Of a DNA stretch of 31,892 nucleotides, positions 1-6,742 are shown in pieces. A model generated the notes under the pieces. The model was not told the origin of the DNA, did not search any database, and was given only the letters and a program-made list of their open reading frames with translations. Position 1 is the stretch's first letter; each line of letters starts with the position of its first letter. The translations under genes were made by a program, and so were the position numbers. This stretch comes from a virus (lineage: Duplodnaviria > Heunggongvirae > Uroviricota > Caudoviricetes): IMG/VR virus record IMGVR_UViG_2654587686_000018, positions 1-31,892 of that record; one strand, written 5' to 3'.

Positions 1-492
1 AATGTATTCTAGCTTGGCGTTTGAATTATTTGATTGTTTGATTTCAAGTAATAATTCTGAAAGAACATTCTCATCTTGTGTTTTTTCGAATAAAATGTAA
101 GAGAAGAAAGAATGTTCTTTATAATAATCAACATTATTATTCTCCCTTATGAACTCAAGGAAAACATTTTTTGCTTCTTTAACTTTATTTTCTTCCAATA
201 ACGACTCTACAGGTAAAAACCAGTGAGTGTCCTTTCTTTCTTGTATATCAGTTGAAGGTGGGGTATCTAAATTTCCTGTTTCGTCTAGGTTATCATCATT
301 CGATATGGATTGATTTTCATCAGTTTCAAAAGTGAGCGGGCCCGCATTCATTTTTAATTTTTTTGCAGAGATTAATTTATTAATGAGTGATTTTAATTGC
401 TTATGATAAACTACTGCGATGACAATACAAAGAATTGGCCATAGAGAAAATTTTAATGCCGTGTCTATGAGTGAGTACATTTCAGGTGTCAT
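1..492 (-). CDS. hypothetical membrane-anchored protein, 5' part only (ORF runs off the window start); AT-rich accessory gene
   Basis: My own translation of the minus strand from the ATG at 490-492: MTPEMYSLIDTALKFSLWPILCIVIAVVYHKQL..., open to position 1. One N-terminal hydrophobic helix. Very AT-rich compared with the neighbouring phage genes. Same strand as CI and 14 bp downstream of its stop. Absent from the ORF track because it has no stop inside the window. Confidence 0.5.
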   Translation of the reverse strand, partial: MTPEMYSLIDTALKFSLWPILCIVIAVVYHKQLKSLINKLISAKKLKMNAGPLTFETDENQSISNDDNLDETGNLDTPPSTDIQERKDTHWFLPVESLLEENKVKEAKNVFLEFIRENNNVDYYKEHSFFSYILFEKTQDENVLSELLLEIKQSNNSNAKLEYI

Positions 493-506
493 ACCCTACG
501 TCCTGT

Positions 507-1064
507 TTAGATGAATGATTTTTTTATGTTCGCTTTGAAATTCAGATCTTTTATAGGGCAGTCAAAGGAAATATCATCCTTAGTCACCCTAACTGAGTTA
601 TTAGGTATACGCGATACATTTCTTATACTAAATTTTTCATCAATACTCAGAAGCCACTTGCCATCGGTAATATCTTCAAAAAATGAATCAGCAATGAATA
701 TGTTGTTATTTTCTTCGATAACAATGGGGCTGACAATATTTTTAGGTAGTATTGTTTTATCAAAAAAAACAGTTCCGGCATCATATAGATTTCCATCAAC
801 TATTTTTTGCTTATGCAATCTTAGAATGTCCTGCCTTTCTATATCAAAAACAGGACCATTACCGTTAACTAGCCAGGTCAGTGATGCTCCTGTTTGTAAA
901 GCGCATGTAATTACCCAATCTGATGGGAAAATATCTCTCATGTATCTAGTGGCAAGGGTGCTTTTCGATACACCCAAGTGATCGGCTAGCGCCTGCCGTG
1001 TGGTGAAACCATATGCTTCAACCAATCTCTCGATAACTTTTCGCCCACCACTGTTGAAATCCAT
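507..1064 (-). CDS. prophage repressor, coliphage 186 CI-like
   Basis: 185 aa with an N-terminal helix-turn-helix (AYGFTTRQALADHLGVSKSTLATRYMRD) and a pattern I recall from 186 CI. Good SD (aagggga) before the ATG at 1062-1064. Divergent from the rightward early operon. Confidence 0.7.
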   Translation of the reverse strand: MDFNSGGRKVIERLVEAYGFTTRQALADHLGVSKSTLATRYMRDIFPSDWVITCALQTGASLTWLVNGNGPVFDIERQDILRLHKQKIVDGNLYDAGTVFFDKTILPKNIVSPIVIEENNNIFIADSFFEDITDGKWLLSIDEKFSIRNVSRIPNNSVRVTKDDISFDCPIKDLNFKANIKKSFI

Positions 1065-1192
1065 TGCTTCCCCTTGGAATCTAATCGTTCTTGACAGATT
1101 CCAAAAGCGATCATAACATCACATCGAAAGTTCGCTTTCGGAATCTTCGCTTGTTAACACTATTAATCCTTGCTCACCACAAGCAGATCAAC
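1065..1192. promoter_or_regulatory. immunity switch region: candidate rightward lytic promoter plus operator-like repeats
   Basis: Perfect -35 TTGACA at 1091-1096, 17-bp spacer, -10-like TAACAT at 1114-1119. GGAATCT at 1076-1082 and 1140-1146, its reverse complement AGATTCC at 1096-1102. Palindrome CGAAAG-N4-CTTTCG at 1125-1140. Confidence 0.4.
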
Positions 1193-1429
1193 ATGGAATC
1201 ATGCATTATGAATCAACACATTTCAATCGCAATTACAACTCCACATGTAACTATTGAACGCTATAGTGAACTTACTGGTTTGTCGGTGGAGACTATCAAC
1301 GACATGTTGGCCGATGGACGGCTCATAAGGCATCGACTACGCAAAGATAAAAAGCGTGAAAAAGTGATGATTAACATCGCAGCCATGACAATAGATGCAC
1401 TTTCTAACAGCAACGTAATCATTAGTTAG
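1193..1429 (+). CDS. Apl/Cox-like small DNA-binding regulator or excisionase (start uncertain: ATG 1193 or 1208)
   Basis: First gene rightward from the switch. HTH-like segment ERYSELTGLSVETINDMLADGRL. The track ORF starts at a TTG at 1091 that coincides with the -35 hexamer, so an internal ATG is more likely. Confidence 0.45.
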   Translation: MESCIMNQHISIAITTPHVTIERYSELTGLSVETINDMLADGRLIRHRLRKDKKREKVMINIAAMTIDALSNSNVIIS

Positions 1430-1461
1430 TTCGATTTTGAGAACTTTTGGAGGCGTTGGCT

Positions 1462-1965
1462 ATGTTTGACTATCAAACTTCTAAACATGCTCACTTTGAT
1501 GCGGCTTGCCGAGCATTTGCAATTGAACACAATCTGGAAGATGTGGCCGCTGCCGTTGGCATGAGGCCGCAGATTCTGCGCAACAAATTGAATCCAGCAC
1601 AGCCGCACCGTTTAACCTGTGACGAGCTTTTAGCTATTACGGATTACACCGAAGATGCGCGTTTACTGGATGGAATGCTGGGGCAGATTAACTGCCTTCC
1701 ATCCGTACCGGTGAACAATGCTACAGAAGGCAACATGCAGTTGTGTGCACTGAGTGCCACAGCCAGTGTGGGCGCAATTGCTGGGGAAGCCGTATCAACT
1801 GGTCATATGACCGCCGCCCGCCGTACACAAATTCTGGATCGCGCTCGCGATGCAATCCGTAGCTTATCCGTGCTGGCTTATACCGTTGAAAGCCGTATCC
1901 AGTCTGCGCCTGTTCTGGCCGCAGCGGTGGATCTGGTGACGGCTAACGCCACAGGCTTGATATGA
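1462..1965 (+). CDS. CII-like transcriptional activator (186 CII family)
   Basis: ATG at 1462 preceded by GGAGG at 1449-1453. N-terminus MFDYQTSKHAHFDAACRAFA...LRNKLNPAQPH matches what I recall of 186 CII. Sits immediately after the Apl-like gene as in 186. Confidence 0.6.
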   Translation: MFDYQTSKHAHFDAACRAFAIEHNLEDVAAAVGMRPQILRNKLNPAQPHRLTCDELLAITDYTEDARLLDGMLGQINCLPSVPVNNATEGNMQLCALSATASVGAIAGEAVSTGHMTAARRTQILDRARDAIRSLSVLAYTVESRIQSAPVLAAAVDLVTANATGLI

Positions 1966-3088: not shown

Positions 3089-3322
3089 ATGCACATGACA
3101 CGTCAGGATTTACCCGCAACGAAATCAGGTACTGACCTTCTGGCCATGCTCACCAAAGCCACACAGGAAGGTAAAGCCGCTGCTGCTGATCTGTGTTCCA
3201 CCCGTCTGGATAAGCTGGCCACCCATGCAGCCAATGAAGGTTTAAGCGCAACTGAAGTCATTGAGTTAATCCGCGAAGAAGCCGCAGCGATTTGCAGTAA
3301 GGGCGGTGCAGCATGGCAGTAA
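3089..3322 (+). CDS. hypothetical early protein (77 aa)
   Basis: ORF with SD (aagga) upstream; alanine-rich, predicted helical. Confidence 0.5.
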   Translation: MHMTRQDLPATKSGTDLLAMLTKATQEGKAAAADLCSTRLDKLATHAANEGLSATEVIELIREEAAAICSKGGAAWQ

Positions 3323-4182
3323 AAACTCCGCTTAAGTGGGTGGGCAGCAAAGCCCGCCTTATGCCGCAGTTGCTTCCCCATCTGCCGGAGGGTAAGCGCC
3401 TGATAGAACCTTTTGCCGGTTCCTGTGCTGTCATGATGAATACGGATTATGACGAGTATCTGATAGCTGATGTGAATCCTGACCTTGTTAATCTGTATAA
3501 GACGATGGCTTATCACACTGATGCATTGCTCATTGAGCTGGAGGCTTTATTTTCTGCCGGTTCATTAGGTGATGAAGAAAACCGGGCAATTTTCTATTAC
3601 GCGGTACGTGATGCCTTCAACCACTCCGGCAAATCCTTTGGTTCTGAATCTGTGGAAGCTGCGGCGCGTTTTCTTTATCTGAACCGTCACTGCTTCAATG
3701 GCCTGTGCCGATACAATCGCCGTGGCCAGTTCAATGTTCCGTTTGGTAAGTACAAAAAAACCTACTTTCCTGCTGATGAAATCCGCGCTTTTGCAGAAAA
3801 AGCGAAACGTGCAACGTTCATTACTGCCCACTATTCAGAAACGCTTGATTTGGTAAGGGACGGGCATGACGTTGTTTATTGTGATCCGCCTTACCTGACT
3901 GATACCGACAATTTCACCGCGTACCATGAGCGCGGTTTTTCTCACATGGATCAGGGGCGGCTGGCGCGTAAGCTGCGCCGCCTGGCTGAGCGTGGGATTA
4001 AGGTTGTCGCGTCAAACAGCGATCTGGAAATGGTGCATTACCTGTATGCAGGATTTGACGCTGTGCGGGTAAATGCCCCACGCAGTGTGGGTGCAGCAGC
4101 TGCAAGCCAGAAAGTTGCCGCAGAGCTGATTCTTAAGTCACCTGCAAACCCGGCGATCGGCGTTAGGGCGGTGGTGGCATGA
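3313..4182 (+). CDS. DNA adenine methyltransferase, Dam-like (N6-adenine, D12 class)
   Basis: N-terminus MAVKTPLKWVGSKARL and motifs EPFAGSCAV and DPPY are characteristic of Dam-family enzymes. No restriction endonuclease gene nearby. Confidence 0.85.
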   Translation: MAVKTPLKWVGSKARLMPQLLPHLPEGKRLIEPFAGSCAVMMNTDYDEYLIADVNPDLVNLYKTMAYHTDALLIELEALFSAGSLGDEENRAIFYYAVRDAFNHSGKSFGSESVEAAARFLYLNRHCFNGLCRYNRRGQFNVPFGKYKKTYFPADEIRAFAEKAKRATFITAHYSETLDLVRDGHDVVYCDPPYLTDTDNFTAYHERGFSHMDQGRLARKLRRLAERGIKVVASNSDLEMVHYLYAGFDAVRVNAPRSVGAAAASQKVAAELILKSPANPAIGVRAVVA

Positions 4183-6486: not shown

Positions 6487-6506
6487 TACTGTATGAATAT
6501 ACAGTT
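6487..6506. promoter_or_regulatory. LexA (SOS) box
   Basis: TACTGTATGAATATACAGTT is a CTGT-N8-ACAG palindrome close to the E. coli LexA consensus. It overlaps a -10-like TATACT at 6485-6490. Confidence 0.7.
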
Positions 6507-6523: not shown

Positions 6524-6742
6524 ATGCTTGTGCAGGATTTGTTTATGGAAACTATCGCATTGCAGCGGATTGCGTTGTTTACCAGGTTGATCGCCAAAAG
6601 TAATTGCACTGGCTGTGAAAAGGACATTGCACTTGCCTGGCTAAGCGAGCTGACTTCAGATCTGGAAAGTAAACTTGATGAATATGAAAGTAAAAACCCC
6701 CGGGAAGGGGGCTTATCAGGCGGCGGGAGTCGCTTTCAGTAG
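6524..6742 (+). CDS. small SOS-regulated protein, candidate Tum-like antirepressor (start ATG 6524 or GTG 6530)
   Basis: ORF immediately downstream of the LexA box with a strong SD AGGAGG at 6518-6523. Function inferred from position and regulation, not sequence identity. Confidence 0.4.
   Translation: MLVQDLFMETIALQRIALFTRLIAKSNCTGCEKDIALAWLSELTSDLESKLDEYESKNPREGGLSGGGSRFQ
6692..6711 (-). terminator. putative intrinsic terminator for the Ogr-like gene
   Basis: CCCCC/GGGGG stem with 5-nt loop at 6697-6711 and an A-run at 6692-6696 (U-run on the minus transcript), 5 nt past the stop at 6716. Confidence 0.4.

What the first reader, a model, noticed from the sequence alone, without database searches (positions are those of the whole stretch)
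1065..1192. Immunity switch with a perfect -35 hexamer and three copies of a 7-bp motif
The CI / Apl-like intergenic region has a TTGACA at 1091-1096 with a -10-like TAACAT 17 bp downstream. The motif GGAATCT occurs at 1076-1082 and 1140-1146, and its reverse complement AGATTCC at 1096-1102, bracketing the -35. A separate palindrome CGAAAG-N4-CTTTCG lies at 1125-1140. These look like operator half-sites. A leftward promoter-like TTGATC / ATTAAT pair on the minus strand around 1160-1200 would make the two promoters face to face, as in 186 and P2.
Basis: seen in the sequence. Interest (0 to 1): 0.45.

Follow-up and report, generated by a model that had tools for sequence, protein, structure and literature searches.

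The report
186-type phage immunity switch operators
This is the lysis/lysogeny control region of an uncharacterised 186-like (P2-family) prophage, and the repeated GGAATC motif is the strong half of three 16-bp repressor binding sites around the lytic promoter, so it is an ordinary kind of switch with a new operator sequence and wider operator spacing.

Summary
The region lies between a 186-type cI gene (507-1064, minus strand) and a Cox/Apl-like gene (1208-1429). It is followed by cII and fil, so it is a 186-type immunity switch.

Comparison with nine related prophages changes the anatomy.
- There are three copies: O1 at 1066-1081, O2 at 1097-1112 and O3 at 1130-1145.
- O2 fills the spacer of pR (TTGACA-17-TAACAT) and is nearly invariant in all relatives whose CI has the same recognition helix.
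- A Brenneria prophage with that helix, and an Apl-like gene whose N-terminal sequence looks unrelated, carries three copies of the whole 16-mer.
- Klebsiella-type phages with a changed helix but a 74%-identical Cox carry different palindromes.

The motif therefore tracks CI.

- The CGAAAG palindrome is not conserved.
- The proposed pL (TTGATC/ATTAAT) is not conserved either. The homologue of the mapped 186 pL is TTGAAA-17-CATGAT at 1226->1198, and it is conserved.

The promoters are still face to face, about 65 bp apart. The operators sit about three helical turns apart (31 and 33 bp), against two turns in 186. My verdict is a new member of a known kind, of modest interest.

The parts
507..1064 (-). 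cI immunity repressor gene (185 aa), 186 type
   Evidence: Pfam Phage_CI_repr (1.6e-29) plus Phage_CI_C (2e-27). It is 31% identical to 186 CI. The recognition-helix region GVSKSTLATRYMRD is shared with the relatives.
1066..1081 (.). O1: operator GCTTCC-CCTT-GGAATC (reverse complement GATTCCAAGGGGAAGC). Its left half overlaps the cI ribosome-binding site.
   Evidence: Only one mismatch to GATTCC-N4-GGAATC. It lies 30-31 bp left of O2 in all relatives. The Brenneria locus has the full 16-mer at the same place. Confound: GGGGAA on the minus strand is the cI SD.
1091..1096 (+). pR -35 TTGACA
   Evidence: It reads TTGACA, TTGACT or TTGAAA in the relatives.
1097..1112 (.). O2: operator GATTCC-AAAA-GCGATC, filling 16 of the 17 spacer bases of pR
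   Evidence: All 16 bases are invariant in 6 of 8 diverged loci; the other two carry one A->G change. The same 16-mer sits in the pR spacer of Brenneria L005. The 186 central operator TCTCTC-AATT-GGGAGA occupies the same place.
1114..1119 (+). pR -10 TAACAT; inferred transcription start near 1126-1128
   Evidence: It reads TAACAT, TAATCT or TAAAGT in the relatives. The start is inferred from the hexamer position only.
1130..1145 (.). O3: operator GTTCGC-TTTC-GGAATC (reverse complement GATTCCGAAAGCGAAC), just downstream of the inferred pR start
   Evidence: It lies 33 bp right of O2 in all nine loci. The site is kept while the flanking sequence diverges. It forms the 15-bp inverted repeat with O2.
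1125..1140 (.).
   Evidence: Not conserved as a palindrome in the relatives. The RNA hairpin is -5.7 kcal/mol with z = -0.86. Its right arm overlaps O3.
1172..1183 (.). Conserved block GCTCACCACAAG between the promoters; candidate Cox/Apl binding sequence (inference)
   Evidence: It is kept in all relatives, including the Klebsiella-type phages L002 and L003, which have other CI operators but a 74%-identical Cox.
1162..1191 (-).
   Evidence: Not called by the scan. The hexamers are not conserved and the relatives show no A at position 2 of the -10.
1195..1200 (+). Fourth GGAATC copy. It overlaps the pL -10 and sits where the apl Shine-Dalgarno lies. It may be a weak CI contact over pL.
   Evidence: The same position reads GGGAAT in 186 and AGGAGA in the Klebsiella-type phages, so SD function explains its conservation equally well.
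1198..1226 (-). pL (lysogenic promoter) candidate: -35 TTGAAA at 1226-1221, 17-bp spacer, -10 CATGAT at 1203-1198; inferred start near 1191
   Evidence: The scan hit scores 9 of 12. CATGAT followed by TCC matches the annotated 186 pL -10. The -35 is invariant and the -10 keeps CAnnAT in all relatives.
1208..1429 (+). cox/apl-like gene (73 aa), first gene of the lytic operon
   Evidence: PHROG 575, Cox-like excisionase and repressor, 1.2e-28. No Pfam family. About 32% identical to 186 Apl in a global alignment.
1429..1444 (.). Candidate FR flanking operator GTTCGA-TTTT-GAGAAC, overlapping the predicted pE -10 (CAAAAT, 1439-1434, minus strand)
   Evidence: It has the same position as the annotated 186 FR, at the apl stop / cII start. 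It is conserved. It reads GTTCGATTTTGGAATC in L014, which is 14 of 16 to the operator consensus. In the window it is only 11 of 16 and has a low matrix score.
1462..1965 (+). cII gene, with the CII-site-like inverted repeat ATGTTTG...TAAACAT at its start (1462-1489)
   Evidence: Pfam Phage_CP76, 9e-47. The repeat matches the annotated 186 CII site.
805..820 (.). Weak candidate FL flanking operator TTTTGCTTATGCAATC inside cI
   Evidence: It is the fourth-best matrix score in the first 2.3 kb and lies 292 bp left of O2. 186 FL lies about 306 bp left of its central operator. It is not conserved in position in the relatives, so confidence is low.

Best explanation
The 143-bp cI-apl intergenic region is the lysis/lysogeny switch of a 186-type temperate phage of the P2 family (Peduoviridae).

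The lytic promoter pR (TTGACA-17-TAACAT, 1091-1119) fires rightward into cox/apl-cII-fil and the replication genes. CI, a 186-family repressor with an HTH N-terminal domain and an oligomerising C-terminal domain, binds three 16-bp pseudo-palindromic operators of consensus GATTCC-AAAA-GCRAWC.
- O1 (1066-1081) lies upstream of the -35.
- O2 (1097-1112) fills the promoter spacer.
- O3 (1130-1145) lies just after the transcription start.

Occupancy of O2 excludes RNA polymerase, and O1 and O3 add cooperative binding through the CI oligomer.

The lysogenic promoter pL most likely lies at 1226->1198 on the minus strand, partly inside apl. It faces pR with starts about 65 bp apart. Repression of pR would then also relieve transcriptional interference on pL, as in 186. 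A fourth GGAATC over the pL -10 may give weak autorepression at high CI. A degenerate operator at the apl/cII junction (1429-1444) overlaps the predicted CII-dependent pE -10, as FR does in 186.

What is shown: gene identities, motif positions, conservation, and covariation with the CI recognition helix. What is inferred: binding itself, transcription starts, cooperativity, interference, and the roles of FR and the fourth copy.
For: Gene content:
- CI has both 186-CI Pfam domains, and cII and fil follow.
- The first rightward gene is a Cox-like RDF.

The promoter: pR is the best promoter-like hit in the region, and its hexamers and 17-bp spacer are kept in eight diverged loci.

The operators:
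- The 16 bases of O2 are invariant or differ by one base in loci whose CI is only 56-82% identical and whose flanking intergenic DNA has diverged. A promoter spacer has no other known reason to be conserved.
- O1 and O3 keep their positions, -30/-31 bp and +33 bp from O2, in all nine loci.
- GATTCC is the most repeated 6-mer across the eight intergenic regions.
- In L009 both O1 (GATTCC-CCTT-GGAGTC) and O3 (GGTTCC-ATTT-GGAATC) are near-perfect palindromes.

Covariation with CI:
- Brenneria populi L005 has a CI only 54% identical overall but with an identical recognition-helix region. The N-terminal sequence of its first rightward gene does not resemble the window's Cox on inspection; no alignment was computed. 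It carries three copies of the whole 16-mer (GATTCCAAAAGCAATC, GATTCCAAAAGCGATC, GATTCCAAAAGCAAAC) at 28 and 30 bp spacing. The middle copy fills the spacer of TTGACG-17-TAGTAT.
- Klebsiella-type phages L002 and L003 have a 74%-identical Cox but a changed helix (LANRYLRD). They lack GGAATC sites and carry GTACCC-AATT-GGGTAC-type sites at the same three positions.

Comparison with 186:
- The 186 record annotates a CI-bound region over pR in which TCTCTC-AATT-GGGAGA fills the pR spacer.
- It also annotates a pL whose -10 CATGAT precedes the apl start, starts 62 bp apart, and FR at the apl/cII junction.
- The same CATGAT-TCC string and the same layout occur here.
- PMC3675496 and PMC7498355 describe the 186 mechanism.
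Against: - No binding, footprint or transcript data exist for this phage or any close relative, and no deposited phage has a CI more than 50% identical.
- The left half of O1 doubles as the cI Shine-Dalgarno, and the fourth GGAATC doubles as the apl Shine-Dalgarno. Their conservation is therefore ambiguous.
- The -35 of the preferred pL lies in conserved apl coding sequence, so its conservation is confounded too.
- The operator spacing of 31 and 33 bp does not fit the two-turn phasing on which the 186 wheel-wrapping model rests. The cooperative mechanism may therefore differ.
- The window's FR candidate matches the consensus at only 11 of 16 positions, and its central TTTT is also explained by the pE -10.
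- No convincing FL was found.
- Window-wide the motif is not enriched.
Confidence: 0.8

Rival explanations
1. The GGAATC copies are binding sites for the Cox/Apl-like protein, the second regulator of the switch, and not for CI.
For: In P2-like phages the RDF binds between and over the two face-to-face promoters (PMC7498355). The motif copies lie in that zone. The fourth copy sits right before the apl gene.
Against: RDF sites are 6-bp direct repeats spaced 10-11 bp apart, and at least three adjacent ones are needed. Here the copies are inverted and 21-55 bp apart. Phages with a 74%-identical Cox but another CI helix lack the motif. A Brenneria prophage with the same CI helix, and an Apl-like gene that looks unrelated on inspection (no alignment computed), has three full 16-mers. 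The block that does follow Cox is GCTCACCACAAG at 1172-1183.
Confidence: 0.05
2. The operator unit is the reader's pair of 9-bp arms TTGGAATCT-N13-AGATTCCAA, with half-sites two helical turns apart bracketing the -35. A third half-site lies four turns further on. Each strong half-site would contact one subunit of a 186-like wheel with two-turn phasing.
For: The arms are a perfect 9-bp inverted repeat. The centres of the strong hexamers lie 21 and 43 bp apart (1078.5, 1099.5, 1142.5), which are multiples of two helical turns. That is the phasing reported for 186 pR operators.
Against: This model does not explain why the ten bases after GATTCC (AAAAGCGATC) are invariant in every relative. It also does not explain why Brenneria repeats the whole 16-mer three times in direct orientation at 28 and 30 bp. 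In relatives the O1 strong half degenerates (GGAGTC, GCAATC, TAAATC, GGAACC) while a 6-4-6 pseudo-dyad remains.
Confidence: 0.1
3. The repeats are a by-product of overlapping signals (cI and apl ribosome-binding sites, promoter hexamers) plus chance, and CI binds somewhere else.
For: Triples of some 7-mer occur in 2.6% of 128-bp windows. Two of the four GGAATC copies coincide with or adjoin Shine-Dalgarno positions. The motif is not enriched window-wide.
Against: O2 and O3 overlap no ribosome-binding site. O2 is invariant inside a promoter spacer. The motif switches together with the CI recognition helix. This specific cluster occurred in 0 of 2000 shuffles.
Confidence: 0.05

Closest known systems
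Coliphage 186 CI / Apl / CII switch (pR-pL with FL and FR; Dodd, Egan, Shearwin and co-workers; PMC3675496, PMC7498355, PMC7708051)
   Same: - The repressor has the same two-domain family.
- The gene order is the same: cI, then cox/apl-cII-fil in the opposite direction.
- A 16-bp 6-4-6 pseudo-palindrome fills the 17-bp pR spacer.
- The pL -10 CATGAT-TCC lies just before the apl start, with its -35 inside apl.
- The promoters are convergent, about 62-65 bp apart.
- An operator-like site sits at the apl/cII junction over the pE -10.
- The CII inverted repeat lies at the start of cII.
   Different: - CI is only 31% identical and its recognition helix differs: SKSTLATRY here against SSSLSNRY in 186.
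- The half-site is GATTCC rather than TCTCTC.
- All three pR operators share the same strong half-site and lie 31 and 33 bp apart, against two helical turns in 186.
- The intergenic region is 143 nt. The published range for 18 CI-type phages is 88-125 nt (PMC3448106).
- The RDF is a PHROG-575 Cox-like protein with no clear similarity to Apl.
- The gene downstream of cI is not int.
- No Tum homologue was found.
- FL was not found.
Klebsiella / Escherichia Peduoviridae with the same Cox type (e.g. vB_EcoM-813R9 ON470620, KP12 OM835953)
   Same: - Cox is 74% identical and CI is 46% identical, with a nearly identical HTH.
- Three 6-4-6 sites lie about 29-30 bp apart, with one in the pR spacer.
- The block GCTCACCACAAG and the pL -10 position are conserved.
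   Different: - The operator half-sites differ (GTACCC and GATCTC), matching the T->N change in the recognition helix.
- The intergenic region is shorter (95 nt) and the pR -35 overlaps the cI start codon.
- These phages are therefore expected to be heteroimmune.
Phage P2 C / Cox switch
   Same: The early and lysogenic promoters are face to face, and a Cox-type RDF/repressor is the first early gene.
   Different: The P2 C repressor is about half the size and cannot be aligned with CI. It binds direct repeats. P2 has no cII and no pE (PMC3448106). The window's repressor is the CI type.

Membership tests
186-type (CI/Apl/CII) immunity switch of P2-like phages | Repressor with a Phage_CI_repr HTH domain and a Phage_CI_C oligomerisation domain, and no S24 peptidase domain | tested here: met
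   Pfam hits at 1.6e-29 and 2e-27 cover residues 10-72 and 84-181. BLASTP to 186 CI gives 4e-31.
186-type (CI/Apl/CII) immunity switch of P2-like phages | Divergent gene order: cI leftward, and an RDF (apl/cox) followed by cII and fil rightward | tested here: met
   ORFs, Pfam CP76 and Fil, PHROG 575. RefSeq annotates the near-identical E. coli EcPF15 prophage the same way.
186-type (CI/Apl/CII) immunity switch of P2-like phages | Convergent pR and pL promoters a few tens of bp apart between cI and apl | tested here: inconclusive
   pR and a conserved homologue of the 186 pL are predicted from sequence, with starts about 65 bp apart. No transcript mapping is possible with these tools.
186-type (CI/Apl/CII) immunity switch of P2-like phages | Inverted-repeat CI operator overlapping pR, filling its spacer | tested here: met
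   O2 at 1097-1112 fills the spacer. It is near-invariant and covaries with the CI helix. Protein binding itself was not tested.
186-type (CI/Apl/CII) immunity switch of P2-like phages | Three pR operators spaced two helical turns (about 21 bp) apart, matching adjacent dimers of the CI wheel | tested here: not met
   There are three operators, but their centres lie 31 and 33 bp apart in all nine loci. The spacing is 28/30 in Brenneria and 29/30 in the Klebsiella type. The 186 value comes from PMC3675496.
186-type (CI/Apl/CII) immunity switch of P2-like phages | Distal single operators FL and FR about 300 bp to either side | tested here: inconclusive
   The FR candidate at 1429-1444 is at the homologous position and is conserved, but it is degenerate in the window. 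The FL candidate at 805-820 is weak and not conserved.
186-type (CI/Apl/CII) immunity switch of P2-like phages | RDF binding sites as 6-bp direct repeats at 10-11 bp spacing between pR and pL | tested here: inconclusive
   A Cox-linked conserved block was found at 1172-1183, with loose YAACMC-like repeats near 1155, 1165 and 1175. No clear repeat array could be defined, and att is not in the window.
186-type (CI/Apl/CII) immunity switch of P2-like phages | SOS induction through a LexA-controlled antirepressor (Tum) | tested here: inconclusive
   A perfect LexA-box-like site at 6489-6504 precedes a small ORF in the position that tum occupies in 186. The ORF has no similarity to Tum and no Pfam family.
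186-type (CI/Apl/CII) immunity switch of P2-like phages | CI assembles into a 14-mer wheel that wraps operator DNA | not testable with these tools
   This needs biophysics or structure determination. Only the Pfam CTD match is available.
P2-type C/Cox switch | Small C repressor binding directly repeated operators; no cII | tested here: not met
   The repressor is the CI type and cII is present. The operators are inverted pseudo-palindromes.
Lambda-type CI switch | Repressor with an S24 self-cleaving peptidase domain, and divergent PR/PRM promoters | tested here: not met
   There is no S24 domain. The promoters are predicted to be convergent.

The most novel reading that the evidence does not exclude
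In this CI subfamily (the window, its relatives, Brenneria and the Klebsiella-type phages) the three lytic-promoter operators are identical-type 16-mers spaced about three helical turns apart (28-33 bp, varying by half a turn between phages). In 186 the spacing is a fixed two turns. If that spacing is real and functional, these repressors cannot wrap DNA on a 186-style heptamer-of-dimers wheel with two-turn phasing. They would have to use a different oligomeric geometry or a looser, linker-mediated cooperativity. This would be a natural variant for testing the wheel model.
Probability: 0.25. Interest if true: 0.55.

Novelty: new member of a known kind. Interest (0 to 1): 0.3.

Why it matters
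The work defines, from sequence alone, the likely operator code (GATTCC-AAAA-GCRAWC) and promoter layout of a previously uncatalogued immunity class of 186-like prophages in Enterobacterales.

This is useful in three ways:
- It helps predict superinfection immunity and heteroimmunity.
- It supports prophage annotation.
- It offers an orthogonal repressor/operator pair for synthetic circuits.

Comparing 186, the Klebsiella type and this phage shows a shared 6-4-6 operator geometry, with the outer bases changing together with one or two residues of the recognition helix. The roughly three-turn operator spacing is a testable contrast to the two-turn spacing in the 186 CI wheel model. Otherwise the biology is that of a well-studied kind of switch.

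Tried and rejected
- Window-wide enrichment of GGAATCT, TTGGAATC (up to 1 mismatch) or GATTCC-N4-GGAATC (up to 3 mismatches): none was found. Only the local clustering and the conservation are informative.
- Megablast of the switch against deposited phages matched only from cII rightward. Distant blastn found only Klebsiella-type phages, through the cI N-terminus and cox. tblastn found no phage CI above 50% identity.
- The genome-contig scan with CI returned only two Brenneria loci. The close relatives came from the protein search and contig look-ups.
- The CGAAAG hairpin as an RNA element: -5.7 kcal/mol, z = -0.86, and not conserved. Rejected.
- The FL search with two position matrices gave only non-conserved weak hits. 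An operator-like hit at 956-971 in every relative lies in the codons for the invariant recognition helix, so I attribute it to coding constraint.
- The small SOS-box ORF was compared with 186 Tum and gave no alignment.
- I could not retrieve the original 186 operator definitions (A, A' and B types). The supplement of PMC3675496 is not held, so 186 operator positions rest on the GenBank annotation and the text of PMC3675496.
- I could not define Cox/Apl boxes convincingly.
Full report
**1. What is there**

- GGAATCT at 1076-1082 and 1140-1146, and its complement at 1096-1102.
- TTGACA at 1091-1096 and TAACAT at 1114-1119, 17 bp apart.
- CGAAAG-N4-CTTTCG at 1125-1140.
- On the minus strand, TTGATC (1191-1186) and ATTAAT (1167-1162).

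The repeat finder adds what the eye missed:
- The arms are longer: TTGGAATCT/AGATTCCAA, and the 15-nt pair AGATTCCAAAAGCGA/TCGCTTTCGGAATCT.
- There is a fourth TGGAATC at 1194-1200.

**2. Chance**

For this particular motif the clustering is extreme. Three copies within 71 bp occurred in 0 of 2000 dinucleotide shuffles, and four GGAATC within 125 bp in 1 of 2000. The motif was chosen after the fact, however. If any 7-mer is allowed, 2.6% of 128-bp windows of this sequence hold a triple. The motif is also not enriched over the whole 31.9 kb. The count alone would not carry the claim. The comparative evidence does.

**3. Context**

- The ORF at 507-1064 (minus strand) has both Pfam domains built on the phage 186 repressor, Phage_CI_repr and Phage_CI_C. 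It is 31% identical to 186 CI.
- To the right lie a 73-aa Cox-like excisionase/repressor (PHROG 575), then cII (Phage_CP76), fil, a D12/Dam-class methyltransferase and the replication gene A.
- The structural genes resemble the Escherichia Peduoviridae phages ESSI2_ev129, ev015 and ev040 at about 86% identity.
- The immunity region has no counterpart among deposited phages. Megablast starts matching only inside or after apl, and no phage record has a CI above 50% identity.
- One E. coli chromosome (EcPF15) carries a 95.7%-identical copy, annotated the same way.

**4. Relatives and phylogenetic footprint**

A protein search and contig look-ups gave seven usable, non-redundant loci whose CI is 56-82% identical to the window's. 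L008 is degenerate and was used only in the first alignment. All of them have an identical or near-identical recognition-helix region, GVSKSTL(M)ATRYMRD. Alignments of the intergenic regions show islands of conservation in otherwise diverged DNA:
- TTGAC(A/T)-GATTCCAAA(A/G)GCGATC-n-TAA, that is the pR -35, its whole spacer and its -10.
- A 16-mer ending in GGAATC, GCAATC or GGAGCC exactly 33 bp further right.
- A weaker 16-mer 30-31 bp to the left.
- GCTC(A/G/T)CCACAAG.
- (T/A)GG(A/G)AT(C/G)nTGC just before the apl start.

An unbiased k-mer count over the eight intergenic regions ranks GATTCC, ATTCCA and TTCCAA first.

**5. The unit is a 16-mer, not a 7-mer**

Written with the strong half first, the three window sites are:
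- O1: GATTCC-AAGG-GGAAGC (1081->1066).
- O2: GATTCC-AAAA-GCGATC (1097-1112).
- O3: GATTCC-GAAA-GCGAAC (1145->1130).

In L009 both flanking sites are near-perfect palindromes: GATTCC-CCTT-GGAGTC and GGTTCC-ATTT-GGAATC.

The decisive case is the Brenneria populi prophage L005. Its CI is 54% identical overall but has the same recognition helix. Its first rightward gene begins with a sequence that does not resemble the window's Cox on inspection; I did not compute an alignment. It carries GATTCCAAAAGCAATC, GATTCCAAAAGCGATC and GATTCCAAAAGCAAAC in direct orientation, 28 and 30 bp apart. The middle copy fills the spacer of TTGACG-17-TAGTAT.

The converse case is the Klebsiella-type phages L002 and L003. 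They keep a 74%-identical Cox, but their CI helix reads LANRYLRD. They have no GGAATC sites. At the same three positions they carry GATCTC-ACTT-GGGTAC, TATCTC-TTTT-GCGATC (in the pR spacer) and GTACCC-AATT-GGGTAC.

The motif therefore follows CI and not Cox. In 186 itself the annotated CI-bound region over pR contains TCTCTC-AATT-GGGAGA, which fills the 17-bp spacer in the same way. The 6-4-6 geometry with an A/T centre looks like a family property, and the outer bases carry the specificity.

**6. Promoters**

pR is secure as a prediction. It scores 10 of 12 and is the best hit in the region. Its hexamers and spacer length are kept in the relatives.

ATTAAT lacks the A at position 2, the scan did not call it, and in the relatives the corresponding hexamers are GTTAAG, TTAACG, TTAATC or nothing promoter-like.

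The 186 record places the pL -10 (CATGAT) immediately before the apl start and its -35 inside apl, with pR and pL starts 62 bp apart. The window has the same string, GGAATCATGCA(T)TATG. It gives TTGAAA-17-CATGAT at 1226->1198, which the scan did call. TTGAAA is invariant in all relatives and the -10 keeps CAnnAT. The inferred starts, about 1127 and about 1191, are roughly 65 bp apart and face to face. That matches the 40-60 bp quoted for P2-like phages and the 62 bp of 186. One caveat applies: the -35 lies in conserved coding sequence, so only transcript mapping can settle this.

**7. The other elements**

- The CGAAAG-N4-CTTTCG palindrome is not conserved as a palindrome. As RNA it folds no better than shuffles (-5.7 kcal/mol, z = -0.86). 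Its right arm (1135-1140) overlaps O3.
- The fourth GGAATC (1195-1200) overlaps the pL -10 and could be one of the weak CI contacts over pL that 186 is reported to have. It also sits exactly where the apl Shine-Dalgarno lies. The same position reads AGGAGA in L002 and GAGGAA in L011 and L012. Its conservation is therefore ambiguous.
- The left half of O1 likewise doubles as the cI Shine-Dalgarno.
- At the apl stop / cII start there is a conserved GTTCGA-TTTT-GA(G/A)A(A/T/C)C. It reads GTTCGATTTTGGAATC in L014, which is 14 of 16 to the operator consensus. The position is that of the annotated 186 FR, and its centre is the predicted pE -10 (CAAAAT). This repeats the 186 design in which FR overlaps pE. 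In the window the match is only 11 of 16.
- No convincing FL was found. The site at 805-820 is the best candidate but is not conserved.

**8. Mechanism (inferred by analogy with 186)**

- In a lysogen a CI oligomer occupies O1-O2-O3. O2 sterically blocks RNA polymerase at pR, and O3 lies over the early transcribed region.
- Silencing the strong pR removes convergent transcription over pL, so cI expression is sustained.
- At high CI, contacts over pL (the fourth copy) may damp it.
- After infection, pR expresses Cox/Apl and CII. CII activates pE through the conserved ATGTTTG...TAAACAT repeat at 1462-1489, giving a burst of cI. CI at the FR-like site would then shut pE.
- Cox/Apl probably binds the conserved block at 1172-1183 and its neighbours.
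- CI has no S24 domain, so induction should need an antirepressor. A perfect LexA-box-like site at 6489-6504 precedes a small ORF where 186 has p95-tum. The ORF is unrelated to Tum.

**9. Comparison and novelty**

This is a member of the 186-type switch family by gene content, repressor family, promoter layout and the position of the central operator. One property reported for 186 was tested and not met. The three pR operators are not two helical turns apart. They are 31 and 33 bp apart, constant across nine loci, with 28/30 in Brenneria and 29/30 in the Klebsiella type. All three are the same operator type.

The intergenic region (143 nt) is longer than the 88-125 nt reported for 18 CI-type phages. 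This may mean that the cooperative geometry differs from the 186 wheel with two-turn phasing. The half-turn variation between phages argues for flexible rather than strictly phased contacts.

I rate the finding a new member of a known kind, specifically a new immunity specificity. A moderately interesting structural question is attached to it. Interest is 0.3.

Noticed in passing
window 6489-6504 and 6524-6742: A perfect LexA-box-like palindrome, CTGTATGAATATACAG, lies between replication gene A and an ogr/delta-like gene. It sits just upstream of a 72-aa ORF with no Pfam family and no similarity to 186 Tum. This is the position of p95/LexA/tum in 186, so the ORF is a candidate new SOS-controlled antirepressor for this CI.
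   Followed up: partly
window 1172-1183: The block GCTCACCACAAG between the two promoters is conserved in all relatives. It is also kept in Klebsiella-type phages that have different CI operators but a similar Cox. It is a candidate Cox/Apl recognition sequence. No clear 10-11-bp direct-repeat array could be defined around it.
   Followed up: partly
window 1109-1112 (GATC inside O2), 1186-1189, and gene 3313-4182: The phage encodes a D12/Dam-class N6-adenine methyltransferase (Pfam 1.7e-66). The invariant right half of O2 (GCGATC) contains a GATC next to the pR -10. Methylation state might influence CI binding or pR activity.
   Followed up: no
window 956-971: GGGTGCTTTTCGATAC, inside cI, scores as operator-like in every relative, 141-142 bp left of O2. 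It encodes the invariant recognition-helix residues VSKST, so coding constraint is the likelier cause.
   Followed up: partly
window 1-506 and L001 1-1513: The gene downstream of cI is a roughly 530-aa protein annotated as tetratricopeptide-repeat in E. coli EcPF15, and as 'chromosome segregation ATPase' in the Klebsiella-type phages. In 186 that position is occupied by int. It may be a moron or defence cargo transcribed with cI.
   Followed up: no
L008 (Enterobacter roggenkampii GCA_036948305.1), reverse complement around 2043-2300: This relative looks like a decaying prophage. The pR -35 has a 1-bp deletion (C-TGAAAG). The apl reading frame breaks off into unrelated sequence. cI and the operators O2 and O3 are intact, so this may be a domesticated immunity module.
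   Followed up: no
window 1065-1207: The cI-apl spacer is 143 nt, longer than the 88-125 nt range reported for 18 CI-type P2-like phages (PMC3448106). This fits the wider operator spacing.
   Followed up: partly
L002 1207-1281 (Escherichia phage vB_EcoM-813R9): The predicted operators of the Klebsiella/Escherichia-type CI are GATCTC-ACTT-GGGTAC, TATCTC-TTTT-GCGATC and the perfect palindrome GTACCC-AATT-GGGTAC, 29-30 bp apart. The pR -35 TTGACA overlaps the cI start codon. None of these features is annotated in the record.
   Followed up: partly
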